Shown: positions 1,376-36,016 of the stretch, piece after piece
Layout: each line of letters starts with the position of its first letter
Position numbering within the stretch: the stretch's first letter is position 1
IMG/VR virus record: IMGVR_UViG_3300010224_000005
Origin: a virus
DNA length: 64,000 nucleotides
Reading direction: 5' to 3' (one strand)
The notes under the pieces: model-generated
Seen by the model: the letters and a program-made list of their open reading frames with translations, nothing else
The model's database searches: none
Told to the model about the DNA's origin: nothing
Made by a program: the position numbers and the translations under genes

Positions 1376-3397
1376 GTGCCCGTGCCCGACGTCATCATCT
1401 CCCCGACCGGAGTCCAAGGCCCCCGCGGGAACGCCGTCCTCTCCGGCGCGCGGGCGCCGCAGACGTCGGACGGTATCGACGGCGACTACTGGGTCGACAC
1501 CACCCAGTACCCCACCAGCGCGCTGCTGTACGGGCCGAAGGCCAGCAACACGTGGCCCGGCTCGGGGATCACTTTCGGCGGCGGTGCGGTCGGGGCACTC
1601 CTCGCCGCGAACAACCTGAGCGATCTGCAGGACAAGCCCACGGCCCGCACGAACCTCGGGCTCGGCACGGCAGCTACTCACGCCGCTGGCGACTTCGACG
1701 GGGCCGGTGCGGCCGCAGCTGCTTACACCTCTGCCGTGTCATACACGGACGCCCAGATCGGCGGCGAGGTCTCCCGCGCGAACGGCGCCTACCAGCCGCT
1801 GCAGCCCGGCGTCTTCGACGTCACCAAGGCGCCATACAGCGCGAAGGGCGACGGGCTCGTCGTCACGGACGGCGCCATCACCACCGGCACCGCGATTCTC
1901 ACGTCCGCGTCCGCTCCGTTCGCCAACGTCATCGCGGGCATGCTCGTCATGGTCAAGGGCGCCGGCACCTTCGGCGTCACCACACACGTCACCACCGTCG
2001 CCAGCAAGCAGAGCAACGGCCAGATCACCCTGGCCGCCAACGCCCCCACGACAGTCACCGGCGCCCTCGTCCTCATCGCCACGGACGACACGGGGGCGTT
2101 CCAGGCCGCGATCAACGCGGCCACCGCCTACGCCGTCCTCCACGGGGCAGCCAAGGTCCTCATCCCGGCCCCGGCCGGACGCTTCTACGGCATCGGCGGC
2201 CCCCTGGTCTCCGGCGGCGCGACGAAGGGCAACGCCCAGCTCACTCTCCCGGTCGTGGCCACCAGCGGCAACAAGGCCGTCTTGACGATCGAAGGCCCCG
2301 GCGACGGGGCCGCGGTTCAGCACTGGGAGCAGCTCGTCCCGCAGATGTCCGGGGCCACCCTCGTCAGCTTCGGTGTCTTCGCGTCGTCATCAGCGCAGAT
2401 CGCGTCGATCAACGCAGCTGGCAACGCCTGTGTGCTCGGCGGCCCGTCACAGCCCGGCGGGTACGGCGTCGCCCCGGGCGTGTACTCCAACATGCACCTG
2501 GTGCTCAGGAACATGAGCATCCTGACCACGCACTCCGCGAACGGCCTCACCTACTCGGCCGCCGATCTGAGCGGCGTGGCCAACGCGGCCATCGAGAACA
2601 TGGCGTACGGCACCACCGGCACCGTCGCGGGCGGCGACTACTCGTCCCCGGGGAGCTTCGCCTTCGGCCTGGTACCCGGCCTGCTGCTGCCGGCCGACGG
2701 AAACAACGACCTGGTGACCGTCCGGAACCTGACCTGCCACGGCGGCTACACGTACGGGATCTTCGCCACCGAGCACTTCGACGGCAACAACATCAGGATC
2801 TTGTACGACTGGGCGGCGTTCTGCCCGGTCGGCACGTACTACGGGTCGGTCGGCTCGACGCACGCGATCGTCGCGACGCTGCTGTCGATCGAGTCGTGCT
2901 CGTACCTCGTGTACATCATCGGCGGTGGCAGCGGCGGCATCGGGCCCTTCCTTCACCTGCGGATCGACACCGAGACGGGCCTGCCGCGCTTCGGCGATAA
3001 CAACAGCGGGTTCGCCAGTTCGACGGCGCGCGGCGAAGTCGTCCTCACGGGCCTGTACACCGCGTCGTCGCTGACCCTCGACGCTCCGATCGGTTACGAC
3101 ATCATCGACGGCCAACGCTCCTACCCGAGCCTCGCCGTGAGCGCGAACTACACGGTCAGCACCCTCGACGAACTGGTCACCGTCGACGCCTCCGGCGCCG
3201 GTCGCACGATCACCCTGCCGACCGCCGTCGGCCGCAACAAACGGATCATCGTTACCAAGACCGACAGCAGCGGCAACGCCGTGACCGTCGCCACGACAGG
3301 CGGCCAGACCATCAACGGCGTCGCCACCAAGAGCCTCGCCACCCAGTGGGCCACCGCCGAATTCGTGCCCGCCGCCGGGAACTGGATCGCCCGATGA
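1376..3397 (+). CDS. Tail fibre / tailspike with pectate-lyase-superfamily (beta-helix) domain
   Basis: N-terminus GPRGNAVLSG..GDYWVDT..LYGPK and LSDLQDKPTARTNLGLGTAA are typical of actinophage fibre N-termini. FDVTKAPYSAKGDGLVVTDGAI matches the pectate_lyase_3 style start of tailspikes. An alternative GTG start at 1382 is possible. Confidence 0.8.
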   Translation: MPVPDVIISPTGVQGPRGNAVLSGARAPQTSDGIDGDYWVDTTQYPTSALLYGPKASNTWPGSGITFGGGAVGALLAANNLSDLQDKPTARTNLGLGTAATHAAGDFDGAGAAAAAYTSAVSYTDAQIGGEVSRANGAYQPLQPGVFDVTKAPYSAKGDGLVVTDGAITTGTAILTSASAPFANVIAGMLVMVKGAGTFGVTTHVTTVASKQSNGQITLAANAPTTVTGALVLIATDDTGAFQAAINAATAYAVLHGAAKVLIPAPAGRFYGIGGPLVSGGATKGNAQLTLPVVATSGNKAVLTIEGPGDGAAVQHWEQLVPQMSGATLVSFGVFASSSAQIASINAAGNACVLGGPSQPGGYGVAPGVYSNMHLVLRNMSILTTHSANGLTYSAADLSGVANAAIENMAYGTTGTVAGGDYSSPGSFAFGLVPGLLLPADGNNDLVTVRNLTCHGGYTYGIFATEHFDGNNIRILYDWAAFCPVGTYYGSVGSTHAIVATLLSIESCSYLVYIIGGGSGGIGPFLHLRIDTETGLPRFGDNNSGFASSTARGEVVLTGLYTASSLTLDAPIGYDIIDGQRSYPSLAVSANYTVSTLDELVTVDASGAGRTITLPTAVGRNKRIIVTKTDSSGNAVTVATTGGQTINGVATKSLATQWATAEFVPAAGNWIAR

Positions 3398-4620: not shown

Positions 4621-6327
4621 ATGGCCGCCACACCCGACTGGGCCGAATACGCCGCCCGCTCCTTCGAACCCCGACCGAATGCCGACCTGTGGCCCACCCC
4701 CGGCGCCCTGGCCAAAATCGTCGAGCCGGCCACCCTGCAGACACCCGCCCTCGACCTGGTCGACGAAGCCGTCGCCTGGGCGTACAGCACCCCTGACGCC
4801 CGTCTGATCATCTCGATGCCCCCGCAGGAGGGAAAGTCCCAGCGGGTCACCAAGACGGGTTCTCTGTGGGCCCTGCACCGCAACCCAGAGATGCGGATCG
4901 GCATCGTCTCCTACAACAAGCCTCTCGCCGAGTCCTTCGGCCGTGACGTCCGTAACTGGATCACCACCTACAACGGCGACGACGGCGCCACCGACCTCGG
5001 CCTGCGCATCGCCCGCGACAACGGAGCAGCCTCCCGCTGGCAGCTCGCCGGCCACGCCGGCGGCATCATCTGCGTCGGACTCAAGGGCTCCCTCACCGGC
5101 CGCCGCGTCGACGCCCTGGTCATCGACGACCCCTTCGCCGACAAGGAGCAGGCCGACTCCGCCTACTACCGCGACCGGGTGTGGGGCTGGTGGCAGTCCG
5201 TCGGCTCAACGCGCCTGTCCTCCGGCGCCCCGGTCATCGTGATCCTCACCCGCTGGCACGAGGACGACATCGCAGGCCGGCTCAAAGCCGCCGAGGACGG
5301 TCACCGCTGGCGAGTCATCAACATCCCCGCCCTCGCCGATCACAACCCCGAGAAGGGCGAGACCGACCTGCTGGGTCGCCAGCCCGGGGAGTGGCTGAAG
5401 TCCGCTCGAGGCCGAACGGACGAGCAGTGGGAAGCCATCCGTATCCAGGCCGGCACCCGGGTCTTCAACGCCCTCTACCAAGGCCGCCCATCGCCGGACT
5501 CCGGCAACGTGTGGCGCCGCCAGTGGTGGCGCCGCTACAGCGTCCCCCTGTGGTCACAGCACCCCACCGTCCCGGACGGCTACCGGGTCAATGAGTTCGA
5601 CCAAATGGTCATGTCCTGGGACATGACCTTCAAGGACACCAAGTCGTCCGACTTCGTCGTCGGGCAGGTGTGGGCGCGCCGCGGCGCCAACGTCTACCTG
5701 CTGGACCAGATCCGCAAGCGGATGACGTTCACCGAGACCCTGACCGCCTTCCAGGCCCTCGTCAGGCGCTGGCCCCAGGCCACGGCCAAGCTGGTCGAGG
5801 ACAAGGCCAACGGGACCGCGGTCATCAACACCCTCCGGTCGAAGATCCCCGGCATCGTCGAGGTCACCCCGACCGAGAGCAAGTACGCGCGCGCCAATGC
5901 CGTAGCCCCCGTCGTTCAGGCCGGCAACGTCTTCCTCCCCGAGGGGGAGATCGCTCTGTTCGACCCTGAAGAGCTCATCAATGAGGCCGCCGAGTTCCCC
6001 AACGGCGCTCACGACGACCAGGTCGACGCCACCAGCCAGGCCCTGGCCCACATGCTCCTCGACGGCACCGGCGCCCAGGCCTGGATCGAGTACGTCAAAC
6101 GCCAGGCCAAAGCCGCCGCCCAGGCCCGTGCCGAAGGCGGCCAGCCTGACGAACAACAGCCGCCGGCCGGCGAAGCCACAGACCGAGCCGGCGCCCCAGC
6201 GCCCGGTGGCGCCCCGATGCCCCCCGACACCGCAACACCCACCGCAGCCGCCGACGAACCAGATGATCCGGTGGCAGCCCGTCAGCGCGCCCGTAATGCC
6301 GCCTTCCGGCAGCAGCACCGCAGATAG
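4621..6327 (+). CDS. Terminase large subunit
   Basis: Walker-A-like PPQEGKSQ, LVIDDPF Walker B, ILTRWHEDD and a C-terminal nuclease-like DDQVDA. Start taken at ATG M62 of ORF 4438..6327. Confidence 0.9.
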   Translation: MAATPDWAEYAARSFEPRPNADLWPTPGALAKIVEPATLQTPALDLVDEAVAWAYSTPDARLIISMPPQEGKSQRVTKTGSLWALHRNPEMRIGIVSYNKPLAESFGRDVRNWITTYNGDDGATDLGLRIARDNGAASRWQLAGHAGGIICVGLKGSLTGRRVDALVIDDPFADKEQADSAYYRDRVWGWWQSVGSTRLSSGAPVIVILTRWHEDDIAGRLKAAEDGHRWRVINIPALADHNPEKGETDLLGRQPGEWLKSARGRTDEQWEAIRIQAGTRVFNALYQGRPSPDSGNVWRRQWWRRYSVPLWSQHPTVPDGYRVNEFDQMVMSWDMTFKDTKSSDFVVGQVWARRGANVYLLDQIRKRMTFTETLTAFQALVRRWPQATAKLVEDKANGTAVINTLRSKIPGIVEVTPTESKYARANAVAPVVQAGNVFLPEGEIALFDPEELINEAAEFPNGAHDDQVDATSQALAHMLLDGTGAQAWIEYVKRQAKAAAQARAEGGQPDEQQPPAGEATDRAGAPAPGGAPMPPDTATPTAAADEPDDPVAARQRARNAAFRQQHRR

Positions 6328-6342: not shown

Positions 6343-9300
6343 ATGGGCCTCCGCACCCGCATCACCCAGCTGGCCAAGGTCTTCGGCAACCGTCAGCCCG
6401 CGGACATGCAAGCAGGCGAAACCGCAGCCGGCATGACCCCGAGCCGGCCGTTCTCGCCCGGCGCGCCGATCGGCCCCTATGACGGGTTCTCCCGCCACCC
6501 CCGCACCCACGACTTCGTCACCGGCTACAACATCAGCGCCCGCCCGCGCAGCCACAGCGCGGTCGCGTTCGACACCCTGCGCGGACTGATCGACGCCTAC
6601 GACGTCGCCCAGATGTGCATCTGGCACCGCATCGACTCAATTCGGGCCCTGGACTGGGCGCTCGTGCCCAAGCGGGGCTTCGAAGGCGACGCCGCCGACG
6701 CGATCAGCCTCGGCATGCAGGTGCTGGCCTACCCGGACCGGCAGAACCCGTTCCCCGCGTGGCTGGCCACCTGGCTGTACGACATCCTCGCCTACGACGC
6801 TGGCACCCTGTCCCGGGTCAAGAACCGCCGTGGCGACGTCATCGGCCTGCGCGTTGTCGACGGCACCACCATCGCCCCTCTGCTGGACTACTGGGGTAAC
6901 TCCCCGGAACCACCGGCCGAGGCCTACGTCCAATACGTCAACGGGCTGCCCTGGAACTGGCTCACCCGCAGGGACCTCGTATACGTCCCCTTCAGGCCTC
7001 GCTCCAACAGCCCGTACGGATACGCGCCGCTCGAGTCGATCCTGCTCAACGCCAACACCGACCTCCGCTTCCAGGCGTACTTCCTCCAGCGGTTCACCGA
7101 GGGCAACATCCCCCAAGCGATCGGCTCCTCGCCGGAGAACTGGACCCCGGACCAGGTCCAGGAATTCCAGGGCTGGTGGGACCAGTTCATGATGGGCGAC
7201 CAGGCCATCAAGTCCCAGATCCGGTGGATCCCTGGCGGCAGCAAGATCGAATGGTCGAATGAGAAGGACTTCGACGACACCTTCTCCCTCTTCCTCATGC
7301 GCAAGACCTGCGCCGCCTACCACGTCGTCCCCGCCGACCTCGGCTTCACCGAGACCGTCAACCGCTCTTCCGGAGAGACCCAGGCCGACGTCCAGCACCG
7401 CGTCGGCGACCTGCCGCTCGTCTCCCACCTGCAGGGCATCCTCACCGCGTTCCTGCAGCACGACCTCCACCTGCCGCTCGAATTCCGCTTCGACACCGGC
7501 CAGGAGAAGGAAGACCGTCTCACCCTCGCCCAGGCCTGGCAGATCTACATCGACGCCGGCATGGCCTCCGCAGACGAGGGCCGCAAGGAACTCCTGGGCC
7601 TGCCCGTCGACCCGCGCCGGCCCGTACCGCGGTTCCACAACACGCCCCGCCTCGGACCCGTGCCGCTCCTGGCCATCCAGGGCATCGCAGGGAAGATCGA
7701 CCCGGTCACCTACGGGCCGGCCGAGGACCAGATGCCACTGCCCCAGCCATTCGTCCCGGCCCCCGGAGTCATCTCCGACGCGGGCACCACGGATGCCAAG
7801 GCCGCCGCCACCGCGGAGGACGGATACCAGACCCTCGTCCGGCAGGTCTCCCAGCAGCAGGCCGCAAACGAGGCGGCGGAGGCGGCGCAGATGTCGAAAG
7901 ACGGCGCCACCACAGCGGGCATCACCGCGCAGACGGGGCTCGTCGGCCACGACCTCATCGGCAGCGACAACGACCAGCCCCAGCACGAAGACGCGGAAAA
8001 AGACGACGGACAGGCAGCGGAGCTGGCCAAGCAGGAGCTGGCCACCTTCCGCCGCTTCCGCCAGTCCCGGCGCCGTACCGGCGCCTGGCGGGACTTCGAG
8101 TTCCGGCACGTCGACCCCGTCCAGGCGCACCGCCTCAACGACTCCGGTCGCCTCGACGTCCGCAAGGACTCAGGGCAGATCGCCGTCGCCGGCCTCGCTG
8201 TCCGGGCCGCCGACACCGGCCGCGTCCTCATGCTGCAGCGCGCCCTGACGGAAGGAGACCCAGCGGGCGGCACGTGGGAGTTTCCCGGAGGCCACCTCGA
8301 AGGCGACGAACGGCCCCTCACGGCCGCCGTACGCGAGTGGTCGGAAGAGACCGGCCTGATCCTGCCCTACGCTCCCGAAACGGCGGCCGCGCACGCCTTC
8401 GCCAACGGGCCGACCTGGACGAACGGCATCTACCAGGGGTTCGTCTACACCGTCGACACCGAGAGCATGCTCGACCTCGGCTACCGCGAGGCCGTCACCA
8501 ACCCCGACGACCCCGACGGCGACCAGGTCGAGAGCCTCGCGTGGTGGGACCCCGCGCAACTGCCCGGCAACCCAGCTGTACGGCACGAACTGCAGGACTC
8601 GATGGGGATCGTCCTCCGCCTCCTCGCCCCCTGCCCCTGCTGCAGTGGGGGAGGGGAACACGGCAACGGCTCCGAGTGCCTGCACTGCGACGCCTCCGGC
8701 ACCGCGATCGGTACCACTGGGCCCGTCCCGTGTGAAGGCGCTCTCGCGGGCACCGCGGACGTCACCGTGAGCCCGGAAGGCGTCTACACCTCAACGTGCC
8801 CCTGCGGCACACCGGCCGTGTATGACGACCTCGACGGCTGGCAGCACGCCGACGGCTCGATGGGCCACGACGACGGCACCCAGGAAACCGTCGCCGACAA
8901 GATGCGCAATGTCGCCAAGGCCGGCCGCCCAAAAGGCGAAGGCGCTGAGGGAGGGCCGCCCGGCCGGTGGCCCGGTTGGACGATGGACCTCAAGGCCATC
9001 GCCCACTGGGCTTCCCGGATCACGTCCTCGCTTCGAAGCGCCGTCAACGCCCGCCGCATCGTGGACGCATGGCTCGCCCTCAACCCCCGCTCATCGGCTG
9101 CCCGAAAAGCAGACCGTCTGCGGGAGCTCAACGAGCAGGCCCGCCAATGGCTCCAGGAGAACTCGCCCGACCTCGCCTCCGCTCTCGATGAGGTCGTCGC
9201 CGGCATCTACACCGACGGCTACCTCATCGGCGTCCTGGCGGCCGAGGCCGCCATTGAGGCCGCCGGAGCAGAGACCGGCATCGCCGCCGGAATCAACTGG

Positions 9301-9777
9301 GGCAACTGGAAACCCGGCGACACCAAGGCCGCCCAGCTCCTCCTCGGCCCGAACGCCACCGGCGCCGGCCTGCAGGATCTGCTGAACGACAGCGGCGTCA
9401 CGATCCGTTCAATCGCCGCCAACCGACTCAACGCCCTCGGCCGGCTCCTCGCCGAGGGCGCCGAGCGCGGCGACAGCCCCACCACCATCGCCAGCGCCAT
9501 CGAGGGACTACTCTCCAACCCCTCGCGCGCCGAGATGATCGCCACCACCGAACTGGCCCGGGCGGTCACCAAGGCCAGCCTGTCCACCTACCTCGCCAAC
9601 GGCATTGAAGCCGTGGAGTGGGTCAGCGCGGGCGATGGCCGGGTCTGCAACATCTGCCAGGCCAACCAAGACGCCGGCCCCGTCCGGCCCGGCAACCTTT
9701 TCCCCAACGGCCGGTCCGGTCCACCAGGCCACCCCTGGTGCCGCTGTGCTCTTGCCCCTGTAACGGGAGGTGGCTGA
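6343..9777 (+). CDS. Portal protein fused to a Nudix hydrolase domain, Cys-rich segment and MuF-like (SPP1 gp7 family) head morphogenesis domain
   Basis: N-terminal about 430 aa are SPP1 Gp6-like portal. Perfect Nudix box GGHLEGDERPLTAAVREWSEETGL. CPCCSGGGEHGNGSECLHC Zn-ribbon-like segment. C-terminal MuF signature VCNICQAN...GPPGHPWCRCALAP. Confidence 0.85.
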   Translation: MGLRTRITQLAKVFGNRQPADMQAGETAAGMTPSRPFSPGAPIGPYDGFSRHPRTHDFVTGYNISARPRSHSAVAFDTLRGLIDAYDVAQMCIWHRIDSIRALDWALVPKRGFEGDAADAISLGMQVLAYPDRQNPFPAWLATWLYDILAYDAGTLSRVKNRRGDVIGLRVVDGTTIAPLLDYWGNSPEPPAEAYVQYVNGLPWNWLTRRDLVYVPFRPRSNSPYGYAPLESILLNANTDLRFQAYFLQRFTEGNIPQAIGSSPENWTPDQVQEFQGWWDQFMMGDQAIKSQIRWIPGGSKIEWSNEKDFDDTFSLFLMRKTCAAYHVVPADLGFTETVNRSSGETQADVQHRVGDLPLVSHLQGILTAFLQHDLHLPLEFRFDTGQEKEDRLTLAQAWQIYIDAGMASADEGRKELLGLPVDPRRPVPRFHNTPRLGPVPLLAIQGIAGKIDPVTYGPAEDQMPLPQPFVPAPGVISDAGTTDAKAAATAEDGYQTLVRQVSQQQAANEAAEAAQMSKDGATTAGITAQTGLVGHDLIGSDNDQPQHEDAEKDDGQAAELAKQELATFRRFRQSRRRTGAWRDFEFRHVDPVQAHRLNDSGRLDVRKDSGQIAVAGLAVRAADTGRVLMLQRALTEGDPAGGTWEFPGGHLEGDERPLTAAVREWSEETGLILPYAPETAAAHAFANGPTWTNGIYQGFVYTVDTESMLDLGYREAVTNPDDPDGDQVESLAWWDPAQLPGNPAVRHELQDSMGIVLRLLAPCPCCSGGGEHGNGSECLHCDASGTAIGTTGPVPCEGALAGTADVTVSPEGVYTSTCPCGTPAVYDDLDGWQHADGSMGHDDGTQETVADKMRNVAKAGRPKGEGAEGGPPGRWPGWTMDLKAIAHWASRITSSLRSAVNARRIVDAWLALNPRSSAARKADRLRELNEQARQWLQENSPDLASALDEVVAGIYTDGYLIGVLAAEAAIEAAGAETGIAAGINWGNWKPGDTKAAQLLLGPNATGAGLQDLLNDSGVTIRSIAANRLNALGRLLAEGAERGDSPTTIASAIEGLLSNPSRAEMIATTELARAVTKASLSTYLANGIEAVEWVSAGDGRVCNICQANQDAGPVRPGNLFPNGRSGPPGHPWCRCALAPVTGGG

Positions 9778-9779: not shown

Positions 9780-10163
9780 ATGCCGACCGAGCAGCGCTAC
9801 GTCCTCGGCATCGCCTACCAGGCCGGCCCCGACCCGCGCATCCGCCGCGGCGCCGACGGCGGCCGCGACTACTTCACACCCGAGGAACTGGAGAAAGCTG
9901 CCTGGGGCTTCCTGCAAAAGGGCGCCCAGGTCGGCCTCTTCCACGGCCCCGACGCAACAGTCGGCGCCGCCACCGTCGTCGAGTCCTACATCTGGCGCGG
10001 CGACGACTGGGACCTCGGAGACGGCACGACCGTCCGCAAAGGCGACTGGCTGATCGGCGCCATCCTCGACGAGCCCGCCTGGCAGCTGTACAAGTCCGGC
10101 CGGATCACCGGTTTCTCGCCGCAGGGACAGGCGCGGCGCATCACCCGACGGAGCACCGAATGA
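9780..10163 (+). CDS. XkdF-like phage protein (putative prohead serine protease-like family)
   Basis: Pattern YVLGIAY...DYFTPEELEKAAWGF...GLFH...VVESYIW...GDWLIGAIL..WQLYKSGRITGFS matches the XkdF family layout. Confidence 0.7.
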   Translation: MPTEQRYVLGIAYQAGPDPRIRRGADGGRDYFTPEELEKAAWGFLQKGAQVGLFHGPDATVGAATVVESYIWRGDDWDLGDGTTVRKGDWLIGAILDEPAWQLYKSGRITGFSPQGQARRITRRSTE

Positions 10164-12139
10164 CCCCTGCAGAGGACGAGTTCACCGAGCTCGTCGACGC
10201 CGACATCCCACGCGTGGACCTGGTCGACAAGGCCGCCAACGGCACGCGGTTCCTCATCGCCAAGAACGCCTCCGGCAGCGGACTGCTGGATCCAGCACTG
10301 GTCCGCGAACTCCTCGGCACCAGCGAACAGCCGCCCCCAGGCCCGGAGACGGTCACGATGACGGGCAGCCCCGCGGCGATCGCCAAGATGATCCACGACG
10401 CCGCCCTCCGCTCCCGCCAAGGCGACTCCGCAGTCACTGCGGCCGCCGAGCCCGCCGACGAACAGGTCCTCAAGGCCAAGTACGACGCCGACGACCTGCG
10501 CCGCATGGCCGCCAGCGGCCAGGCCATGAGGGACGAGTCCTACCCCATCGCCGACCACGAGGACCTCACCAGAGCAATCCGCGCAGTCGGACGCGGCGGC
10601 GCCGATCACGGCTCGATCCGTCGCCACATCATCGCCCGAGCCAAGGCGCTGGGCGCCGCAAGCGAGATCCCCGACAACTGGAACAGCGATGGGAGCCTGA
10701 CAGTGGCCAAGGCCATGGAACCCGACGACGGCACCGACGGCATGGACCCCACCGTCATCATGGCCGAGCCGGCTGGCACCGCGCCCGGCAACCCCACGAC
10801 CCCTGGCAGCCCGGCCTGGGAGGCCATCGACGCGGCCACCGCCAGGAAGTGGACCGGCATTCTTGCCCGCGCGAAGGCAGCCATCGACCTCCTCGCGGAC
10901 CGGGAAATGATGGAAGCCGCGTCCGGCGCCGACCCCGACGACGCCGACCAGGCCTACGACCTCCAGGACGCCTGCTGCGCCATCGACTACGCCATCTCGG
11001 TCCTGGCCCCATTCGCAGTCGCCGAGCAGGCCGAGGCCGACTGCGGCGAGGAGATGGCCGCCGTGGGCAAGGCCCTCGCCGGTTTCGACACGGCCCCGCT
11101 CGACACGATCGAGGCCCTCGCCAGCATCACCAAGGCCGGCCGCGTCCTGTCAGCCAGTAACGAGGCCGCCATTCGCGGCGCCGTCGAGCAGCTGACGAAG
11201 GTCCTCGCCAGCCTGCCGGCACCCATCAGCGACGAGGAGAGCGGCCGGCCGGTCGCCAAGACCGCCCACGAGGAGCCCGACATGCCCCAGCCCACCCCCA
11301 GCGACGAGGCCACCGAAGCGGCCGGCCAGGAGCCCGCGATGGGAGCCGCCGAGCCCACCCCGAAGCCGGTCGCGGGCCTCCCCGTCACCGCGCTCAAGGC
11401 CGCGGAGCACCACGTTCCCGCCAGCCTGGCCAAGGGACTCGAACCGGATACCGGGACCAGGGCGGTGGCCAAGGACGGCGACAAGGAGATGGTCGCCGTC
11501 TACGACGCCAAGGGAAAGCTCGTCGGCATCGTGGCCCCTGAGAAGATCACCCGCATCGCCGGCGCCGACTCCGACACCAGCGACGACACCCCGGCAGACA
11601 GTGCCGACGGCACCGGTGCTGCCGGGCCTGAGACCACCGACCTCCAGCCGGCCCCGGCCGCCGAGGTCGGAACCCCGGCCGACGCCGTCCCCGACGACGA
11701 CGTCACCAAGCAGACCACCAACCCGAGCGACACCACCCCGGATGCCGAGAGCAGCACCGCGGATGTGGCCAAGCGGCTCGACGACTACAGCGCCACCCAG
11801 GAGCAGGTCAACTCCGAGCAGAGCGAGAAGATCGCCAAGCAGGACGCGACGCTGAAGGAACTGGCGGAAGCCGTCGAACTACTGAAGGGCCAGGTCCGGG
11901 TGCTGGAGGAGCAGCCCGCCGTGCCGCACGTGTTCACCAACGGAGCCGTCCCGCCGCCGCACATGATGCGCGGCCAGGACAACGGCGCCCCGCCTGTAGA
12001 CGTCGCCAAGGCGCAGCAACTGAAGAAGCAGCTGTACCGCGGCCCGGACGCGGGCGAGCAGAACGCCATCCACGGACAGCTGAACGAGATGGCCATCGCC
12101 GCGCTCCAGAGCATCCACCAGGGCGGCGCCCGCCCGTAA
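10160..12139 (+). CDS. Scaffolding protein (long acidic/Pro-rich protein with C-terminal coiled coil)
   Basis: ATGA overlap with the previous gene. Position between the XkdF-like gene and the capsid gene. Low-complexity D/E/P/A regions and a helical C-terminus. Confidence 0.6.
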   Translation: MTPAEDEFTELVDADIPRVDLVDKAANGTRFLIAKNASGSGLLDPALVRELLGTSEQPPPGPETVTMTGSPAAIAKMIHDAALRSRQGDSAVTAAAEPADEQVLKAKYDADDLRRMAASGQAMRDESYPIADHEDLTRAIRAVGRGGADHGSIRRHIIARAKALGAASEIPDNWNSDGSLTVAKAMEPDDGTDGMDPTVIMAEPAGTAPGNPTTPGSPAWEAIDAATARKWTGILARAKAAIDLLADREMMEAASGADPDDADQAYDLQDACCAIDYAISVLAPFAVAEQAEADCGEEMAAVGKALAGFDTAPLDTIEALASITKAGRVLSASNEAAIRGAVEQLTKVLASLPAPISDEESGRPVAKTAHEEPDMPQPTPSDEATEAAGQEPAMGAAEPTPKPVAGLPVTALKAAEHHVPASLAKGLEPDTGTRAVAKDGDKEMVAVYDAKGKLVGIVAPEKITRIAGADSDTSDDTPADSADGTGAAGPETTDLQPAPAAEVGTPADAVPDDDVTKQTTNPSDTTPDAESSTADVAKRLDDYSATQEQVNSEQSEKIAKQDATLKELAEAVELLKGQVRVLEEQPAVPHVFTNGAVPPPHMMRGQDNGAPPVDVAKAQQLKKQLYRGPDAGEQNAIHGQLNEMAIAALQSIHQGGARP

Positions 12140-12220: not shown

Positions 12221-13696
12221 GTGAGCGCTCCGCTCGAAAACGTGACTGAGGAGACGCTGGCCGCCATCGCCAAGGCGCAGACGACCGGCATCCTGCAGTC
12301 CACCGGCTTCTACAGCTACGACCTCTCGCCGCTGGTCCAGCTGATCCCCGTCGTCACCCCCTTCCGCGACATGGTGCCGCGCGTCCGCTCCAAGGACGGC
12401 AACCCCTTCGCCGTGTGGCGGTCCGTCATGGACGCCACGAACGCGCAGCCCGACCCGTCGATGGGCATCGACTACGCCGCGAACGAAGTCATCTTCAGGG
12501 AGCAGGACTTCCAGGCGAAGTACATGCCGACCGGTCTCGCCGGCCTCGCCACGCAGGACGCATTCGACTTCGGCACGGGATATGCCGACCCCTACCAGGT
12601 CGCAACTTTCCAGACCCTGAACCAGGTGCTCATCGCGGACGACCGCAAGCTGATGGGCGCTCAGAGCTTCGCGCTCGCCCGGCCGGCCGCCCCGACGCTG
12701 TCGCAGGCATCGACGGGCGGCACCATCGGCGCGGTCACCGCCTACGTAGGTGTCGCCGCGCGCACCGGCTCGGGCTACTACTACGGGACCGGCAACAGCC
12801 GCGGCAACTCGGCGTCGACCACGTTCGCCTCCGGCTCCACCAACAAGATCACGGCCACCGTCGCCAGCGTCCGGGGTGCCGTCGCGTACGACTGGTTCTA
12901 CTCGGCGGACGGGACGACCTGGTACTACTACACCACCACGACCACCAACACCGTCTCCATCACGAAGACGATCAACGCCAACCAGCCGCTGCCGTCGAGC
13001 ATTGTGACGCCGGACCTCTCCAGCGTCGTGCCGACTTTCAACGCGGCCGCCGACAACGGCAGCGCGAACGCCAAGGACTACGACGGCTTTCTGGCCAGCC
13101 TCGCCGGCGACTACAGCTCGGCTGGCCAGTGGGTTCAGCCCGGCACCGGCACGGCGAACCCGTCGATCAACAACAGCCTCGACGGCGCCGCGCTCACCCT
13201 CGCCGGCGGCAGCATCGCCGAGATCGAGAACCTCCTGTTCCTGCCGCTGTGGCAGCAGGTCAAGTGCTCCCCGACCGCGCTCATGATGAACGCCGTCCAG
13301 GCGCAGGAGATCGCCAACCTGGTCCTCGGCTCCAGCGCCGCGACCACGTACCTCACCACCGACGCCTCCGGCCGCATCAGCACCACGGCGGGCGGCCGCG
13401 TCGGCGAGATCGTCAACGCGCCGGCGGGCGGGGTGACCGTCCCCATCGAGGTCCACGTCTCCCTGCCCCCGGGCACGATCATCGCCCGCACGGACAGGGT
13501 GCCTTTCCCCCAGGCCAACATCACCTCGGTGCTCGAGTACCGCAACCTCCGCGACACCGCACAGTTCGACTACGGCATCAGCCGCGTCGCCAACGCGGTC
13601 GGCGGCGGCCCGCGCCGAGAGTTCGAAATCCGCTCCGTCGGCGCGTTCGTCAACCGGGCCCCGGTTGCCATGGGCGTCCTGCAGAACGTCGCCTGA
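12221..13696 (+). CDS. Major capsid protein
   Basis: GGAGG RBS and GTG start. 491 aa, in the position after the scaffold and followed by a strong terminator. Composition typical of actinophage capsid proteins. Confidence 0.85.
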   Translation: MSAPLENVTEETLAAIAKAQTTGILQSTGFYSYDLSPLVQLIPVVTPFRDMVPRVRSKDGNPFAVWRSVMDATNAQPDPSMGIDYAANEVIFREQDFQAKYMPTGLAGLATQDAFDFGTGYADPYQVATFQTLNQVLIADDRKLMGAQSFALARPAAPTLSQASTGGTIGAVTAYVGVAARTGSGYYYGTGNSRGNSASTTFASGSTNKITATVASVRGAVAYDWFYSADGTTWYYYTTTTTNTVSITKTINANQPLPSSIVTPDLSSVVPTFNAAADNGSANAKDYDGFLASLAGDYSSAGQWVQPGTGTANPSINNSLDGAALTLAGGSIAEIENLLFLPLWQQVKCSPTALMMNAVQAQEIANLVLGSSAATTYLTTDASGRISTTAGGRVGEIVNAPAGGVTVPIEVHVSLPPGTIIARTDRVPFPQANITSVLEYRNLRDTAQFDYGISRVANAVGGGPRREFEIRSVGAFVNRAPVAMGVLQNVA

Positions 13697-31949: not shown

Positions 31950-32212
31950 CTGCCGAACGGCTCCAGCACCCCAGCACGCTGAGGCGACGGCGACGGCGAC
32001 GACTCGACCGGCCACGCACATCAAATACCCCGGCAGCCGCGGGACAACGGCGCCGGGGATGGCCAACGCTCTTTGCAGAGAGGGAGCGTCGACATGACGC
32101 AAGCTACAACCCGAAGGAAGCCTCCGGTCAAGACAGCCGGCAGGGCGCACAGTGGCACCCGAGCACGCCTGGACGTCCACTACCGGGGCCGTCGCACGTC
32201 AGGAGCGGTCCG

Positions 32213-32695
32213 GTGAACGCCGTCGAGAAGACCGCACCGGAGCTGGACACCCGCGACTTGAGGGCCCGCGCCCAGGAGTTCCTGGGCGAGGCGGTGCCAC
32301 CGCGCTACGAGATCATCCAGCAGAGCAGCCACGCGTTCAGCTGTGGCCTGTGGACGCTGATCGAGCTCATCAGCGTCATCGTGCGCGAACGGCCTGATGA
32401 CGTGCCCTCACAGGTGGCTATGGCCGGTGTAGGGGAGGCGCAGCGGCGGCTCGACCTCATCGAGCGGCCCGGCCTGCAGGGCGAGTTCGAACGGGTCAAG
32501 CGTCTCGCCCGCTCCGTCATCGCCCTGTGCGACCACCACGCTTTCCTCAGTGGCATGGTCCTGTGCGTGGCCTGCGACAAGCCCATCGAGCCCTCCGACG
32601 ACGTGCTGCCGTACGACCAGGTGAGCCCCTCGGGTGGCGCTCACCGGTCGGGCCGGATCCACGCCGAATGCGCCCAACGGGTACGACGGCACTGA
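32213..32695 (+). CDS. Hypothetical protein with C-terminal CxxC..HxxC motif
   Basis: GTG after AGGAGCGG, in frame with ORF 31739..32695. Confidence 0.45.
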   Translation: MNAVEKTAPELDTRDLRARAQEFLGEAVPPRYEIIQQSSHAFSCGLWTLIELISVIVRERPDDVPSQVAMAGVGEAQRRLDLIERPGLQGEFERVKRLARSVIALCDHHAFLSGMVLCVACDKPIEPSDDVLPYDQVSPSGGAHRSGRIHAECAQRVRRH

Positions 32696-32821
32696 ACACC
32701 CGCGAATTGGCCGGAAGGCGGCTGCAGGATGGGGCTGCTGCCCTCGCGAACCCCCTCCCGTCGCAGACATCGTGTCGCGGCGGGAGGGAGAACCCCCCGG
32801 CCGATTGCAGAGAGGACCGCG

Positions 32822-33280
32822 GTGAGCACGCACGAGACCGTCACCCATTGGCTCGCAGGCCTCCACAGCCGTCCTGCCGAGGCCGTCGCCGAGTGGACCC
32901 GGCAGGGCGTCGCTCTGCTGCCCATGGGGGGCAGTGTGTGCGCCATCCGGCTGGACAGCCAGCTCGTCCACGCGGCCATGGCCACCGAAGTTCCGGAAGA
33001 GGTCGCATCCGGCCTTGCCCGCAATGTTCAGGGGCCGGTCGCCTTCGACCGTAGGGGCGGCGCTTACTACACGTTCGTGGATGCCACGGCGGCCGCCAGC
33101 TGGGACCTCGAGGCGGTTCCATGCCTGGGCGCCGGTGTCTACGTCGGAGTGCCCGCCCTCGACCGCGTAGGACCGGCGGCCCCCTACTGGGTCGTGCAGC
33201 CTCGCTACGCGGGACACCTGTGCCCAGTGAACGCCGTACGCGCCCTCGTGGCCGCTGGCATGGCTGGCAAACGGACGTGA
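32822..33280 (+). CDS. Hypothetical protein (weak resemblance to Prim-Pol N-terminal-like proteins)
   Basis: GTG start in frame with ORF 32729..33280. The function is not established. Confidence 0.4.
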   Translation: MSTHETVTHWLAGLHSRPAEAVAEWTRQGVALLPMGGSVCAIRLDSQLVHAAMATEVPEEVASGLARNVQGPVAFDRRGGAYYTFVDATAAASWDLEAVPCLGAGVYVGVPALDRVGPAAPYWVVQPRYAGHLCPVNAVRALVAAGMAGKRT

Positions 33281-33306
33281 GAGGTTTCTACGCCGCGGTC
33301 ACACAC

Positions 33307-33591
33307 CTACCGGGCGGGGCGCTCGTCACGATGCTGGTGGCGCATGTCGACCTCGTTGGAGGCGTCCACCAGGTGCGCGAGGGAGACGTCCAGCGCGTCG
33401 GCGATCAGGACGAGCATGGACAGAGCGGGGTCGCGCAGGGCCGTCTCATACCGGTGGACGGACCGGCGGTCGATGCCGATGACGTGCGCGAGCTGCTCCT
33501 GGGTCAGCTGTCGATGCCGACGCGCGGTACGGATGCGTTCTCCGATCGCGCGGCGGCGCAGGACGCTCCAGTCCGGCTCTTGCTCAGGCAC
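33307..33591 (-). CDS. XRE-family HTH transcriptional regulator
   Basis: IGERIRTARRHRQLTQEQLAHVIGIDRRSVHRYETALRDPALSMLVLIADALDVSLAHL is a classic HTH_3 segment. Confidence 0.75.
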   Translation of the reverse strand: MPEQEPDWSVLRRRAIGERIRTARRHRQLTQEQLAHVIGIDRRSVHRYETALRDPALSMLVLIADALDVSLAHLVDASNEVDMRHQHRDERPAR

Positions 33592-33818
33592 CCCACAAAA
33601 CTTGTAGGGAAAGGATCATGTGTCAGTGCCCAATTGGGCACTTTTCAGCAGGGAGCAAAGGTGCTTCAATGCTGACTTCTCGCCAAGATTCCACTCTTGG
33701 CCCACTACTTGCCGCTCCCAGACCCTGAGTGGCGAGCCGCTCCTCACCATGCTCCGCAAAGCCGGGAGGAGCGGACCCGCTGGGGCCGGCGGCACGCCGC
33801 CGGCCCCAGACATGCGGC

Positions 33819-34064
33819 CTACCGGGCCGTCGACGACAGCGCCTGATCTGCTTCTCCTGTCTCCAGGAGCCGTACGAGGGAGGCGGTCACCACGCGTCGC
33901 ACCCCGGAGATCGGAAGGACGCGTACCGGAGCCGTCCCCGCCTTGACCTGCTCGTACAGGAGGCTCTTGCCGACGCCCATGGCAGCGGCCGCCTCGACAA
34001 GGCTCACCGTGGCGGGCCACCCGCGAACCTCGTCGAGCGTGGGGGCCTTCTTGTTCTTGCTCAT
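33819..34064 (-). CDS. Excisionase-like / MerR-type HTH_17 DNA-binding protein
   Basis: VSLVEAAAAMGVGKSLLYEQVKAGTAPVRVLPISGVRRV. Divergent from and adjacent to the integrase. Start taken at MSKNKK. Confidence 0.6.
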   Translation of the reverse strand: MSKNKKAPTLDEVRGWPATVSLVEAAAAMGVGKSLLYEQVKAGTAPVRVLPISGVRRVVTASLVRLLETGEADQALSSTAR

Positions 34065-34489
34065 GCGACGACTCCATATCGGGATGCCGGCGTCTGTGCC
34101 CCGGCGGGCGCCTCCTCCCGGCACGAACCACTCCTGCCTCGACCGCGGACACGGGCGTTGCGCCGGAACTTTCCTGGACCTTGCGGCCTGTGACGGACGG
34201 TAGGGCATCATATGGAATCCATGCAACTAACTCGCGCGCAAGCAACTTGCGGCTCCTGTCGCCGCCCGCTGCTCGCCCGCCCGAACAGTCCCCACGCCGC
34301 GTCGCTCCGGCACAGCCGGACGCCGTCGGCGACCCCGGCCCGCAAGGGGGTTTCCCGTGTCCCAACCGATCAAGCCGCGCCGAACGGTATGGCACCACCA
34401 CAGCGACCACGACCCGGACACGCCCCCGCGGCCGCCAGGCGTCGACCTGACGCCCGGCCGAGTGCGGCGATGGCGGGACGCGGTGCGCC

Positions 34490-35934: not shown

Positions 35935-36016
35935 CGCGCCCCAGGGGCAGGGCGCGGCCGGACGCGCGGGAGCCGCCCTTCCGCAAAAGCGGGGGGCGGC
36001 TCCCGTCGCGTTGCGT

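What the first reader, a model, noticed from the sequence alone, without database searches (positions are those of the whole stretch)
6343..9777. Single 1144-aa polypeptide fusing portal, a canonical Nudix hydrolase, a Cys-rich module and a MuF-like domain
Seen in sequence:
- One uninterrupted ORF has an SPP1-Gp6-like portal N-terminus.
- At about aa 620-700 there is a textbook Nudix box (G-x5-E-x7-REWSEETGL).
- This is followed by CPCCSGGGEHGNGSECLHC and TCPCG motifs.
- The C-terminus is MuF/SPP1-gp7-like (..VCNICQAN..GHPWCRCALAP).

Established knowledge: MuF-family proteins are packaged in the head, are often ejected, and frequently carry fused enzymatic or toxin domains. Portal-MuF fusions occur in some actinophages.

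Inference: a Nudix enzyme tethered at the portal vertex would be delivered with, or sit next to, the entering DNA. It could hydrolyse nucleotide-derived signals or caps (NAD/ADPR-type defence messengers, NAD-capped RNA, dNTP-derived alarmones) at the start of infection. The substrate cannot be read from the sequence.
Basis: partly seen in the sequence, partly recalled or inferred. Interest (0 to 1): 0.65.

Follow-up and report, generated by a model that had tools for sequence, protein, structure and literature searches.

The report
Phage portal–Nudix–MuF fusion protein
A temperate actinobacterial phage makes one 1144-residue head protein that joins its DNA-entry portal to an apparently active Nudix hydrolase and a MuF head domain; the design is real but common in related phages and already noted in the literature, and its enzymatic role is untested.

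Summary
ORF 6343-9777 (+) is one uninterrupted 1144-aa gene. It carries Pfam-significant Phage_portal (aa 89-416), NUDIX (616-743, canonical box 650-672) and Phage_Mu_F (1035-1137) domains, with a Cys-rich module in between. One correction: the portal is HK97-type (PF04860), not SPP1-Gp6-type.

It is not unusual. 110 of the 120 closest homologue clusters have the same layout, and cultured Arthrobacter phages Sonali and Mufasa8 carry it. Iyer et al. 2022 already described phage Nudix domains fused to portal, MuF or prohead protease and proposed that they are packaged and injected.

New here:
- The Nudix is conserved almost as well as the portal core, with catalytic residues intact in 119/120.
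- The same Nudix clade is almost never free-standing. It is also fused to ADP-ribosyltransferases, 2H/Acb1-like phosphoesterases and prohead proteases.
- Nearly invariant phi-A-K motifs flank the Nudix module. They are strongly enriched in the neighbouring scaffold-like protein, so they are candidate cleavage sites for the adjacent XkdF-like protease.

The substrate cannot be assigned. Verdict: a real new member of a known kind, of moderate interest.

The parts
6343..9777 (+). Whole gene: portal-Nudix-(Cys module)-MuF fusion protein, 1144 aa, 123 kDa
   Evidence: ORF. RBS and stop. Domains. Identical protein called twice on a JGI contig.
6550..7677 (+). Portal core (aa 70-445), HK97-type
   Evidence: PF04860, 61.1 bits. 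phrog_2662, E=2.7e-64. AF2 pLDDT mostly 80-95. Foldseek hits to the phage 812, GTA and HK97 portals, E down to 3e-10. Mean identity to relatives 0.73.
7678..7998 (+). Low-complexity A/Q/G/D-rich linker (aa 446-552) containing candidate cleavage site (M)SK517-519 (K519 codon 7897-7899)
   Evidence: pLDDT below 50 at aa 513-553. Identity to relatives 0.39. K519 kept in 117/121 sequences, with V/L/I at -2.
7999..8175 (+). Arg-rich helical segment before the Nudix (aa 553-611) with LAK561-563 (K563 codon 8029-8031)
   Evidence: Helices 553-579 and 592-610 in the AF2 model. 19% Arg. K563 kept in 114/121 and E565 in 120/121. Absent from Sonali and Mufasa8.
8176..8628 (+). Nudix hydrolase domain (aa 612-762). 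Nudix box at aa 650-672 = nt 8290-8358. Invariant acidic loop NPDDPDGD at aa 720-727.
   Evidence: PF00293, 58.5 bits. phrog_1198. AF2 pLDDT about 83-90. Foldseek hits to Nudix folds. Catalytic core conserved in 119/120. Identity to relatives 0.66.
8629..8754 (+). Cys knuckle (aa 763-804): C764xxC767xGxG ... C779xxC782 ... C797. DnaJ-like CxxCxGxG motif.
   Evidence: Read directly from the sequence. Present in only 10 of 120 relatives. pLDDT below 50. No Pfam or PDB match.
8755..8922 (+). Cys/His mini-module (aa 805-860): TC819PC821G...GWxH835xDGSxGH842DD, then helix, then VAK857-859 (K859 codon 8917-8919)
   Evidence: Three short strands plus a helix, pLDDT 72-85. A local HMM finds it in 44/120 relatives, always next to or inside the Nudix. 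K859 kept in 118/121. No Pfam or PDB match.
8977..9774 (+). MuF / SPP1-gp7-like head morphogenesis domain (aa 879-1144) with C1102xxC1105 ... H1130PWC1133RC1135
   Evidence: PF04233, 38.8 bits. TIGR01641, 39.9 bits. phrog_115 and phrog_595. AF2 pLDDT 87-96. C1102, C1105, H1130 and C1135 are invariant.
4621..6327 (+). Terminase large subunit, immediately upstream
   Evidence: phrog_38, E=1e-106. PF03237/PF17289 on the identical JGI gene.
9780..10163 (+). XkdF-like prohead serine protease (127 aa), starting 3 nt after the fusion gene's stop
   Evidence: PF14550 Peptidase_S78_2, 57.8 bits. phrog_3017. Junction sequence. Same gene order in L005, L009 and L010.
10160..12139 (+). Scaffold-position protein (659 aa) carrying nine phi-A-K motifs
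   Evidence: 9 observed vs 1.14 expected, with 0 of 2000 shuffles reaching 9. Replicated in L005 (8 vs 0.86), L009 (9 vs 1.26) and L010 (4 vs 1.02).
12221..13696 (+). Major-capsid-position protein (491 aa) with IAK at residues 16-18
   Evidence: phrog_13692. Motif. ISK or IAK at the same position in L005 and L010.

Best explanation
The gene encodes a genuine single polypeptide. An HK97-type portal protein is extended at its C-terminus, through a flexible linker, by a catalytically competent Nudix hydrolase. This is followed by a small Cys/His (probably metal-binding) accessory module and a MuF/gp7-type head domain.

The portal C-terminus points into the capsid, so assembly of the portal dodecamer would place up to twelve copies of the Nudix and MuF modules inside the head at the portal vertex (inferred from established portal topology). 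The fusion replaces the non-covalent portal-gp7 recruitment known from SPP1.

The Nudix is best read as head-internal enzymatic cargo of the 'polyvalent / MuF-effector' type. I propose that the XkdF-like prohead protease encoded by the next gene cuts after conserved phi-A-K motifs (K12, K519, K563, K859). That would separate a ~56 kDa portal, a ~32 kDa Nudix+Cys module and a ~30 kDa MuF. The freed Nudix module could then leave with the DNA and hydrolyse a nucleoside-diphosphate-X compound in the newly infected cell. By association, the substrate is most plausibly an NAD/ADP-ribose-derived or other nucleotide immune signal.

Shown: the architecture, the intact and conserved catalytic motif, the head-gene context, the promiscuous fusion partners and the motif enrichment. 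Inferred: packaging, cleavage, ejection and substrate.
For: Architecture and reality of the fusion:
- Domains and ORF.
- 110 of 120 closest homologue clusters have the same layout.
- Cultured phages Sonali and Mufasa8 share it.

Active enzyme:
- The Nudix box is canonical.
- The core G-x5-E-x7-REWxEE is kept in 119/120 relatives.
- The domain is 66% identical on average, against 73% for the portal core and 40-50% for MuF.
- The fold is confident and Nudix-like.

Cargo logic:
- In split variants the Nudix stays on the portal gene and MuF is a separate gene 87 nt downstream.
- The Nudix clade gives 284 representative clusters at E<=1e-30. The top 150 are 46-69% identical over the domain but sit in proteins of 177-4688 aa, and only one is 250 aa or shorter.
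- Both orders relative to MuF occur.
- In a systematic sample of 48, partner domains include portal (10), MuF (8), S78 protease (2), ADP-ribosyltransferases (ADPrib_exo_Tox 4, ART 2, ART-PolyVal 1), 2H phosphoesterases (2_5_RNA_ligase2 3, LigT 1, Acb1 1) and a zeta-toxin kinase (1).
- Pam4 gp13 is MuF-Nudix. Gilgamesh gp52 sits directly upstream of the capsid gene.

Processing:
- phi-A-K is enriched in the scaffold-position protein of four related phages and occurs at capsid residues 16-18.
- The four lysines in the fusion are kept in 114-118 of 121 sequences despite variable flanks.
- K12, K519 and K859 lie in segments with pLDDT below 50.

Literature:
- SPP1 gp6 recruits gp7 into the procapsid, and gp7 aids the start of infection (PMC6316719).
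- Nudix fused to MuF, portal or protease is proposed to be packaged and injected (PMC9503650).
- The SPN3US protease cuts the capsid protein, portal and ejected proteins at one shared motif (PMC10052503).
Against: - No experimental data exist for any member. My literature searches found only computational statements.
- The cleavage motif is a statistical inference. The specificity of XkdF/S78_2 proteases is unknown to me, and K563 lies in a predicted helix.
- The motif enrichment is absent from Sonali and Mufasa8, which have the same fusion. Processing there would need another motif, or may not occur.
- In SPP1 only a few gp7 copies are packaged, whereas a fusion forces twelve. The analogy is therefore imperfect.
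- Substrate: sequence, profile and fold comparisons all give generic MutT/RppH/Dcp2/Ap4A-type matches driven by the Nudix box.
- The other ORFs of this window show no NAD/ADPr genes among the 25 Pfam families listed, of 28 matched.
- The link to T4 NudE is weak: a different PHROG, and 34% identity over 67 aa.
Confidence: 0.5

Rival explanations
1. The Nudix module is built into the head but stays attached to the portal, or trapped in the capsid, and is never delivered. Any enzymatic role is played late in the producing cell before or during assembly, or inside the procapsid. One example would be removing nucleotide signals or damaged nucleotides while late proteins accumulate.
For: - The domain is covalently joined to the portal, and in split variants it remains on the portal gene rather than on MuF.
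- Canonical MuF cargo sits C-terminal to MuF, but here MuF is last.
- Cleavage is only predicted.
- No phi-A-K enrichment is seen in Sonali or Mufasa8.
Against: - The same Nudix clade also occurs C-terminal to MuF and in polyvalent proteins with ARTs and 2H domains, which are typical injected effectors.
- Nearly invariant lysine motifs flank the module in otherwise variable linkers.
- A portal is made in small amounts, which makes it a poor vehicle for a cytoplasmic housekeeping enzyme (inference).
Confidence: 0.22
2. The enzyme is delivered or active as above, but its substrate is an RNA 5' end, making it an RppH/Dcp2-like pyrophosphohydrolase or decapping enzyme. It would serve host mRNA destabilisation, or act in concert with the phage's own RNA-repair genes, rather than hydrolysing a small-molecule immune signal.
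For: - The top fold matches are the Dcp2 Nudix domains and BdRppH.
- BdRppH is second in the profile search.
- The phage encodes a Ro60/TROVE protein, a YrlA-like Y RNA and an RLIG1-type RNA ligase.
- Nudix decapping enzymes are known from large DNA viruses (PMC9503650).
Against: - Scores for RNA-acting, MutT-type, Ap4A and ADP-sugar Nudix enzymes are nearly the same, and matches are dominated by the Nudix box.
- No NCBIfam RppH model comes near its cut-off.
- Across the clade the fusion partners are ARTs and 2H/Acb1-like domains, not RNA-binding modules.
Confidence: 0.15
3. The Nudix domain is a catalytically dead structural spacer or plug in the portal-MuF assembly.
For: - About 25 of 120 relatives replace the last Gly of the box (EExG) with R, H, A or T.
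- One relative (P0114) lacks the Nudix altogether.
Against: - All metal-binding and catalytic residues (E656, R664, E665, E668, E669) are kept in 119/120.
- The domain is better conserved than MuF.
- The clade keeps 46-69% identity across very different architectures. That fits a conserved activity rather than a context-specific structural role.
Confidence: 0.04
4. The single ORF is an artefact, such as a frameshift or mis-assembly joining separate portal, Nudix and MuF genes.
For: The window comes from a metagenome assembly. Split portal-Nudix plus MuF versions do exist in relatives.
Against: - The same 1144-aa product is called at two places 86,335 bp apart on the contig.
- 110 independent homologue clusters, including NCBI genomes and two cultured, finished phage genomes, have the same uninterrupted layout.
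- Third-position GC is uniform.
Confidence: 0.01

Closest known systems
Arthrobacter phage Sonali gp3 ('portal and MuF-like fusion protein', MK411746) and Mufasa8 gp3 ('MutT/NUDIX hydrolase' in NC_049478)
   Same: Same three-domain order, portal (PF04860) - NUDIX - Phage_Mu_F. Same position after the terminase and before the prohead protease. 40% and 37% identity, with an invariant Nudix box.
   Different: They are about 145 aa shorter. They lack the Arg-rich pre-Nudix helices, the NPDDPDGD loop and the whole Cys-rich module. Their scaffold-position proteins show no phi-A-K enrichment.
Phage Nudix domains fused to MuF, portal or the capsid-processing peptidase (Iyer, Burroughs, Anand, de Souza & Aravind 2022, Viruses 14:1977, PMC9503650)
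   Same: Exactly this class of architecture, and the same functional proposal: packaged into the head, injected, and acting in NAD/ADPr conflicts.
   Different: That paper calls the fused versions T4 NudE-like. Here the Nudix falls in phrog_1198, while T4 NudE is in phrog_1185, and the pairwise match is only 34% over 67 aa. The published claim is computational. It does not address release from the portal or the Cys module.
SPP1 gp7 / MuF family and MuF polymorphic toxins (Jamet et al. 2017, PMC5576092; SPP1 review PMC6316719)
   Same: The C-terminal domain is a MuF/gp7 homologue. MuF proteins are brought into the procapsid by the portal and often carry enzymatic domains proposed to be delivered to the host.
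   Different: MuF toxins have the variable enzyme C-terminal to MuF, and MuF is a separate gene after the portal. Here MuF is the last domain, the enzyme lies between portal and MuF, and everything is one polypeptide. Nudix is not mentioned in the main text of Jamet et al..
Polyvalent proteins of phages and conjugative elements (Iyer et al. 2017, PMC5512222)
   Same: Multi-domain, head-associated proteins that combine portal or MuF with effector enzymes. The same Nudix clade is found with ART, 2H/Acb1-like and zeta-toxin domains.
   Different: The window protein carries only one recognisable effector enzyme, so it is a minimal case.
Portal-MuF fusions of actinobacteriophages (Microbacterium clusters EA3/EA5/EA8/EB; Jacobs-Sera et al. 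2020, PMC7302621)
   Same: Portal and MuF encoded as one gene in phages of actinobacterial hosts.
   Different: No inserted enzyme is described in those fusions. A Herbaspirillum plasmid prophage hit likewise matched only parts of the query, in two pieces covering 40% of it, but its domains were not scanned.
Protease-processed internal or ejected head proteins of T4-like and giant phages (SPN3US gp245, AXE motif; PMC10052503)
   Same: One short motif is shared by the scaffold or propeptides, the capsid protein, the portal and the ejected proteins. It is cut by the prohead protease. This is the model for the phi-A-K prediction.
   Different: A different protease family and a different motif. 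Here the motif is only inferred from enrichment and conservation.

Membership tests
Nudix hydrolase superfamily | Nudix box GX5EX7REUXEEXGU | tested here: met
   G650-HLEGD-E656-RPLTAAV-R664 E W S E E T G L672, read from the translation. Kept in relatives.
Nudix hydrolase superfamily | Profile match above the curated threshold | tested here: met
   PF00293, 58.5 bits vs cut-off 21.1.
Nudix hydrolase superfamily | Alpha/beta/alpha Nudix fold | tested here: met
   AF2 pLDDT about 83-90 for aa 611-760. Foldseek probability 1.00 to many solved Nudix enzymes, TM(target) about 0.55-0.65.
Nudix hydrolase superfamily | Divalent-cation-dependent hydrolysis of an NDP-X substrate | not testable with these tools
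   Needs enzyme assays.
Substrate-specific Nudix subfamilies (MutT, RppH, NudC, ADPRase, NadM-Nudix, CoAse) | Equivalog-level profile match or subfamily signature motif | tested here: not met
   All NCBIfam equivalog hits are far below their cut-offs, e.g. MutT 27 vs 98 bits and RppH about 20 vs 116 bits. The NudC signature SQPWPFPxS is absent from the sequence downstream of the box.
T4 NudE-like phage Nudix clade | Closest phage family is that of T4 NudE | tested here: inconclusive
   T4 NudE matches phrog_1185 at E=5e-74. The window Nudix matches phrog_1198 at E=3e-17 and phrog_1185 only over the box, at E=2e-9. BLASTP gives 34% over 67 aa, E=1e-4.
Phage portal protein, HK97 type (PF04860) | Profile match above threshold and portal fold | tested here: met
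   61.1 bits vs 39.1. phrog_2662, E=2.7e-64. Foldseek hits to the phage 812, RcGTA and HK97 portals.
Phage portal protein, HK97 type (PF04860) | Gene immediately downstream of the large terminase, upstream of protease, scaffold and capsid genes | tested here: met
Phage portal protein, HK97 type (PF04860) | Dodecameric ring at one capsid vertex | not testable with these tools
   Needs cryo-EM or biochemistry.
SPP1 Gp6-like portal (PF05133) | Profile match to PF05133 | tested here: not met
No PF05133 hit even at E<=1.
MuF / SPP1 gp7 head morphogenesis family | Profile match above threshold | tested here: met
   PF04233, 38.8 vs 29.6 bits. TIGR01641, 39.9 vs 39.65 bits. phrog_115, E=4e-19.
MuF / SPP1 gp7 head morphogenesis family | Encoded directly after the portal | tested here: met
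   Fused here. A separate gene 87 nt after portal-Nudix in L005.
MuF polymorphic toxins (Jamet et al. 2017) | Variable toxin or enzyme domain C-terminal to the MuF domain | tested here: not met
   MuF ends the protein at aa 1144, and the enzyme is N-terminal to it. Other members of the Nudix clade do have MuF-Nudix order.
Polyvalent (multi-effector, head-packaged) proteins (Iyer et al. 2017) | Several effector or anchor domains in one polypeptide encoded among virion genes | tested here: met
   Portal + Nudix + MuF in the head module. The Nudix clade recurs with ART, 2H and zeta-toxin domains.
Polyvalent (multi-effector, head-packaged) proteins (Iyer et al. 2017) | Physical presence in the virion and entry into the host | not testable with these tools
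   Needs virion proteomics and infection assays.
DnaJ-type CR zinc finger | Paired CxxCxGxG motifs that bind zinc | tested here: inconclusive
   The first motif fits (C764xxC767xGxG). The second is imperfect (C779xxC782xxxG). There is no Pfam or PDB match, and the AF2 confidence is low.

The most novel reading that the evidence does not exclude
The gene encodes a capsid-internal polyprotein. The neighbouring XkdF-like prohead protease would cut it at conserved phi-A-K sites into a portal, a free ~32 kDa Nudix + zinc-module enzyme and a MuF protein. The freed enzyme would be ejected with the DNA and destroy an NAD/ADP-ribose-derived or other nucleotide immune signal, or an NAD-type RNA cap, in the first moments of infection. 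That would make it a pre-made, virion-delivered enzymatic counter-defence in Streptomyces-group phages.
Probability: 0.2. Interest if true: 0.6.

Novelty: new member of a known kind. Interest (0 to 1): 0.35.

Why it matters
If the packaged-and-released reading is right, these phages carry a ready-made enzyme into the cell. It could act before any phage gene is expressed, which is the window in which signalling defences such as Thoeris, CBASS-like and NAD-depleting systems decide the outcome.

The family is large: 110 of the 120 closest homologue clusters share the layout, and the Nudix clade has 284 representative clusters at E<=1e-30. It also has cultured members (Sonali, Mufasa8). That makes a published but untested computational idea directly testable.

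The predicted phi-A-K processing scheme gives a concrete and cheap first experiment, namely virion mass spectrometry. It would also define the specificity of a poorly known prohead protease family.

As it stands, the finding is a well-populated, already noted architecture rather than a surprise.

Tried and rejected
**Substrate assignment.**
- NCBIfam equivalogs were all far below their cut-offs.
- PDB searches with the single sequence and with a profile, and Foldseek against PDB and BFVD, gave only generic, box-driven Nudix matches. RNA-decapping, MutT, Ap4A and ADP-sugar enzymes scored about equally.
- I looked for the NudC motif SQPWPFPxS and a CoA-type upstream motif by eye. Neither is present.

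**T4 NudE-like membership.** Different PHROG and a weak pairwise match. Left as inconclusive.

**Cys-rich module.** No Pfam hit at E<=0.1 and no PDB sequence hit below E=0.78.

**Genomic hints to the substrate.** A Pfam scan of 63 other ORFs of the window listed no NAD, ADPr, macro, ART or sirtuin domains among the 25 families shown, of 28 matched. Rfam at gathering threshold found nothing.

**Literature.** I found no paper with experimental data on a portal- or MuF-fused Nudix.

**phi-A-K motif in the Arthrobacter phages.** Not enriched there, so the processing prediction is limited to the Streptomyces/Kitasatospora group.

**Artefact hypothesis.** Rejected.

**Plasmid collection.** No close full-length relative. 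It held only Nudix-only matches on 114-130 kb Streptomyces plasmids and partial portal or MuF matches, the largest a two-piece match on a Herbaspirillum plasmid.

Full report
**1. Observation**

The window holds one uninterrupted ORF at 6343..9777 on the + strand, 1144 aa, exactly as reported.
- An AGGAGG ribosome-binding site ends 11 nt before the ATG. The TGA stop is at 9775-9777, and the next gene starts at 9780.
- Third-position GC is 0.89 across the ORF, typical of real genes in this 70% G+C sequence.
- Pfam gives three hits above the curated cut-offs: Phage_portal PF04860 (aa 89-416, 61.1 bits), NUDIX PF00293 (aa 616-743, 58.5 bits) and Phage_Mu_F PF04233 (aa 1035-1137, 38.8 bits). TIGR01641 (SPP1 gp7) also passes.
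- PHROGs agree: portal phrog_2662 at E=2.7e-64, Nudix phrog_1198, and several MuF/head-morphogenesis families.
- The Nudix box G650-x5-E656-x7-REWSEETGL672 is canonical. The quoted Cys motifs and the C-terminal CxxC...HPWCRC motif are present.

The one inaccuracy is the label 'SPP1-Gp6-like'. The portal belongs to the HK97-type Pfam family, and its best fold matches are the phage 812, GTA and HK97 portals.

**2. The fusion is real and common**

- The identical protein is called twice, 86,335 bp apart, on a 179-kb JGI metagenome contig. This also suggests an ~86-kb genome assembled as a concatemer.
- A search of 5.8 billion protein clusters found 628 homologues at E<=1e-10.
- Local HMMs applied to the best 120 give 110 portal-Nudix-MuF, 9 portal-Nudix and 1 portal-MuF without Nudix.
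- Those with a source name are from Streptomyces, Kitasatospora and Streptacidiphilus genomes. NCBI simply calls them 'phage portal protein'.
- Two cultured Arthrobacter phages, Sonali and Mufasa8, have the same layout at 40% and 37% identity. They are annotated 'portal and MuF-like fusion protein' and 'MutT/NUDIX hydrolase'.

**3. Anatomy**

The full-length AlphaFold model built on 67 homologues shows, in order:
- a confident portal core, aa ~70-445;
- a low-complexity, low-confidence linker, aa 446-552;
- Arg-rich helices, aa 553-611;
- a confident Nudix fold, aa 612-762;
- a poorly predicted CxxCxGxG knuckle, aa 763-804;
- a small three-strand-plus-helix Cys/His module, aa 805-860;
- a short Gly/Pro linker;
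- a very confident helical MuF domain, aa 879-1144.

The gene order around the fusion is standard for a head module: large terminase, fusion protein, XkdF-like prohead protease (PF14550), a 659-aa scaffold-position protein, then a capsid-position protein.

**4. Is the Nudix functional?**

- Across the 120 relatives the catalytic core G-x5-E-x7-REWxEE is kept in 119. Only the last Gly of the box varies.
- Mean identity to relatives is 0.66 for the Nudix, 0.73 for the portal core and 0.40-0.50 for MuF.
- This argues for a selected enzymatic activity and against a dead spacer.

**5. Which part does the Nudix belong to?**

- In the ~780-aa Kitasatospora variants the Nudix remains on the portal gene. 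MuF is a separate 209-aa gene 87 nt downstream. The Nudix is therefore a C-terminal portal extension, and fusion to MuF is optional.
- A full HMMER scan of 1.84 billion representatives with the Nudix domain alone gave 775 hits at E<=1e-10 and 284 at E<=1e-30. The top 150 are 46-69% identical over the whole domain but lie in proteins of 177-4688 aa, at N-terminal, central or C-terminal positions. Only one is 250 aa or shorter.
- Among 147 of these, 49 have a portal of this family and 41 have a MuF. All orders occur: portal-Nudix-MuF, portal-MuF-Nudix, MuF-Nudix and Nudix-MuF.
- In a systematic one-in-three sample of 48 proteins, Pfam partner domains were portal (10), MuF (8), S78 prohead protease (2), ADP-ribosyltransferases (ADPrib_exo_Tox 4, ART 2, ART-PolyVal 1), 2H phosphoesterases (2_5_RNA_ligase2 3, LigT 1, Acb1 1) and a zeta-toxin kinase (1).
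- Explicit examples are portal-2H/Acb1-Nudix (P0163), Nudix-DUF5661-2H (P0178) and Nudix...ART (P0208).
- Cyanophage Pam4 gp13 is MuF-Nudix-(protease). In Streptomyces phage Gilgamesh the Nudix sits in a 641-aa protein directly upstream of the capsid gene.

This is the signature of the head-packaged 'polyvalent' effector proteins described by Iyer et al. 2017 (PMC5512222).

**6. What is already known**

- Iyer et al. [quoted passage not shown]
- In SPP1, portal gp6 recruits MuF-type gp7 into the procapsid in a few copies, and gp7 supports the start of infection (PMC6316719).
- MuF proteins with C-terminal toxins are proposed to be delivered to the host (PMC5576092).
- Portal-MuF fusions are known in Microbacterium phages (PMC7302621).
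- I found no experimental study of a portal- or MuF-fused Nudix.

**7. Substrate**

Nothing discriminates between candidate substrates.
- NCBIfam equivalog models all fall far below their cut-offs.
- PDB sequence and profile searches give small MutT/RppH-type enzymes, matched mainly over the box.
- Foldseek puts Dcp2, BdRppH, Ap4A hydrolase, MutT, NUDT15 and others at similar scores.
- T4 NudE is in a different PHROG, and the direct match is weak.
- The recurrent fusion with ARTs and 2H/Acb1-like enzymes favours NAD/ADPr-type or nucleotide-signal substrates by association only.
- An RNA 5'-end substrate remains a live alternative.
- The window's other genes show no NAD/ADPr functions among the 25 Pfam families listed, of 28 matched.

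**8. The topological problem and a proposed solution**

A domain covalently tied to the portal cannot leave the head. I noticed nearly invariant lysines within otherwise variable linkers, in a hydrophobic-small-Lys context: LAK10-12, (M)SK517-519 (VAK in relatives), LAK561-563 and VAK857-859.
- K12, K519, K563 and K859 are kept in 117, 117, 114 and 118 of 121 sequences.
- Three of the four lie in segments with pLDDT below 50.
- The same [VILM][AS]K motif occurs nine times in the scaffold-position protein, against 1.14 expected; none of 2000 composition-preserving shuffles reaches nine. It also occurs at residues 16-18 of the capsid-position protein. It is not enriched in the terminase, tail or other proteins.
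- The pattern replicates in three independent relatives. Scaffold-position proteins show 8 vs 0.86, 9 vs 1.26 and 4 vs 1.02. Fusion proteins show 6 vs 0.54 and 5 vs 0.76.
- It is absent from Sonali and Mufasa8.

SPN3US and T4-like prohead proteases cut the scaffold, capsid, portal and ejected proteins at one shared short motif (PMC10052503). By analogy I propose that phi-A-K marks cleavage sites of the adjacent XkdF-like protease. The products would be a 56-kDa portal, a 4.5-kDa acidic peptide, a 31.7-kDa Nudix+Cys module and a 29.5-kDa MuF. This is an inference. The motif could instead be an interaction motif.

**9. The Cys-rich module**

- The CxxCxGxG knuckle occurs in only 10 of 120 relatives. 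Other relatives carry a different CCGxxCC-type Cys-rich linker.
- The second part (CPCG...W-x-H-x-DGS-x-x-HDD) is found in 44 of 120. It always accompanies the Nudix, even in proteins without a recognisable portal domain, and in P0086 it is inserted inside the Nudix domain.
- It has no Pfam or PDB relative.
- It is probably a small metal-binding accessory of the Nudix. Its role is unknown.

**10. Verdict**

The object is a new member of a known kind. The added value here is the quantified conservation, the demonstration that this Nudix clade is an almost obligately fused, head-associated cargo domain that also pairs with ART and 2H enzymes, and a concrete, testable processing model.

Noticed in passing
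window 58942-59050 (+), 59167-59241 (+), 59332-61008 (+), 52097-52891 (+): A Ro60/TROVE-like gene (PF05731, 55.8 bits) lies just after a ~1.1 kb non-coding gap. The gap holds a full-length but sub-threshold YrlA-like Y RNA match (44.1 bits, E=4e-8; gathering score 69). It also holds a tRNA-like element that ARAGORN calls tRNA-Ser(gct) but that Rfam's tRNA model scores below gathering (22.5 vs 29 bits). An RLIG1-type RNA ligase gene lies 6.4 kb upstream. Together these look like a phage-borne Ro60/Y-RNA/RNA-ligase module. A related Kitasatospora element also has a TROVE gene (L005:1-1298).
   Followed up: partly
JGI contig Ga0136212_1000005 (loci L003, L004): The fusion gene and its neighbours occur twice, 86,335 bp apart and in the same orientation, on a 178,992-bp metagenome contig. 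The contig probably holds about two copies of an ~86-kb phage genome, either a concatemer or a circularly permuted assembly.
   Followed up: no
homologue-bearing contigs listed: About 15 relatives sit on contigs of 94-99 kb, and one is labelled a plasmid of Streptomyces graminifolii (99,246 bp). This suggests a family of ~97-kb extrachromosomal phage-plasmids or complete phage genomes. The PLSDB plasmid collection held no close full-length relative.
   Followed up: partly
window 10160-12139 (+): Nine of the 30 lysines of the scaffold-position protein lie in a [VIL]-A-K context (p<0.0005 by shuffling). The pattern is conserved in three related phages. Its N-terminus (VDLVDKAANGTRFLIAK) matches the start of the phrog_3017 'head maturation protease' profile, although the protease domain itself is encoded by the preceding gene.
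   Followed up: partly
proteins P0070, P0083, P0085, P0107, P0116: Some portal-Nudix(-MuF) homologues are 1410-1608 aa long and carry intein or LAGLIDADG domains (PF14890, PF14528). These are inteins inserted into a portal fusion gene.
   Followed up: no
window 8500-8523 (aa 720-727): An invariant acidic loop, NPDDPDGD, lies inside the Nudix domain of the Streptomyces-group family. N720, P721, D722, D723, D725, D727 and E730 are invariant in 67 sequences. The AF2 confidence is low there, and the loop is absent from Sonali and Mufasa8. It is possibly a metal-binding or interaction loop.
   Followed up: no
protein P0086: The Cys/His mini-module (CTCG...YQHSDGSISHDD) is inserted inside the Nudix domain, upstream of the Nudix box, instead of after it. 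It therefore behaves as a small mobile insert.
   Followed up: no
L008:1-3101 (Streptomyces phage Gilgamesh gene 48; record 31978-45852): A single annotated 13.9-kb gene lies just upstream of the Nudix-containing gp52 and the capsid gene. This resembles the very large virion-associated genes reported in Microbacterium phages.
   Followed up: no
window 1376-3397 (+): A 673-aa protein with weak pectin-lyase-like and tail-fibre PHROG matches is encoded upstream of the terminase genes, away from the tail module.
   Followed up: no
window 34490-35668 (+): A tyrosine integrase gene (PF00589, 58 bits). Several HTH regulators and a WhiB-like gene are also present, their coordinates not mapped. These indicate a temperate lifestyle, consistent with the many prophage homologues.
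   Followed up: no
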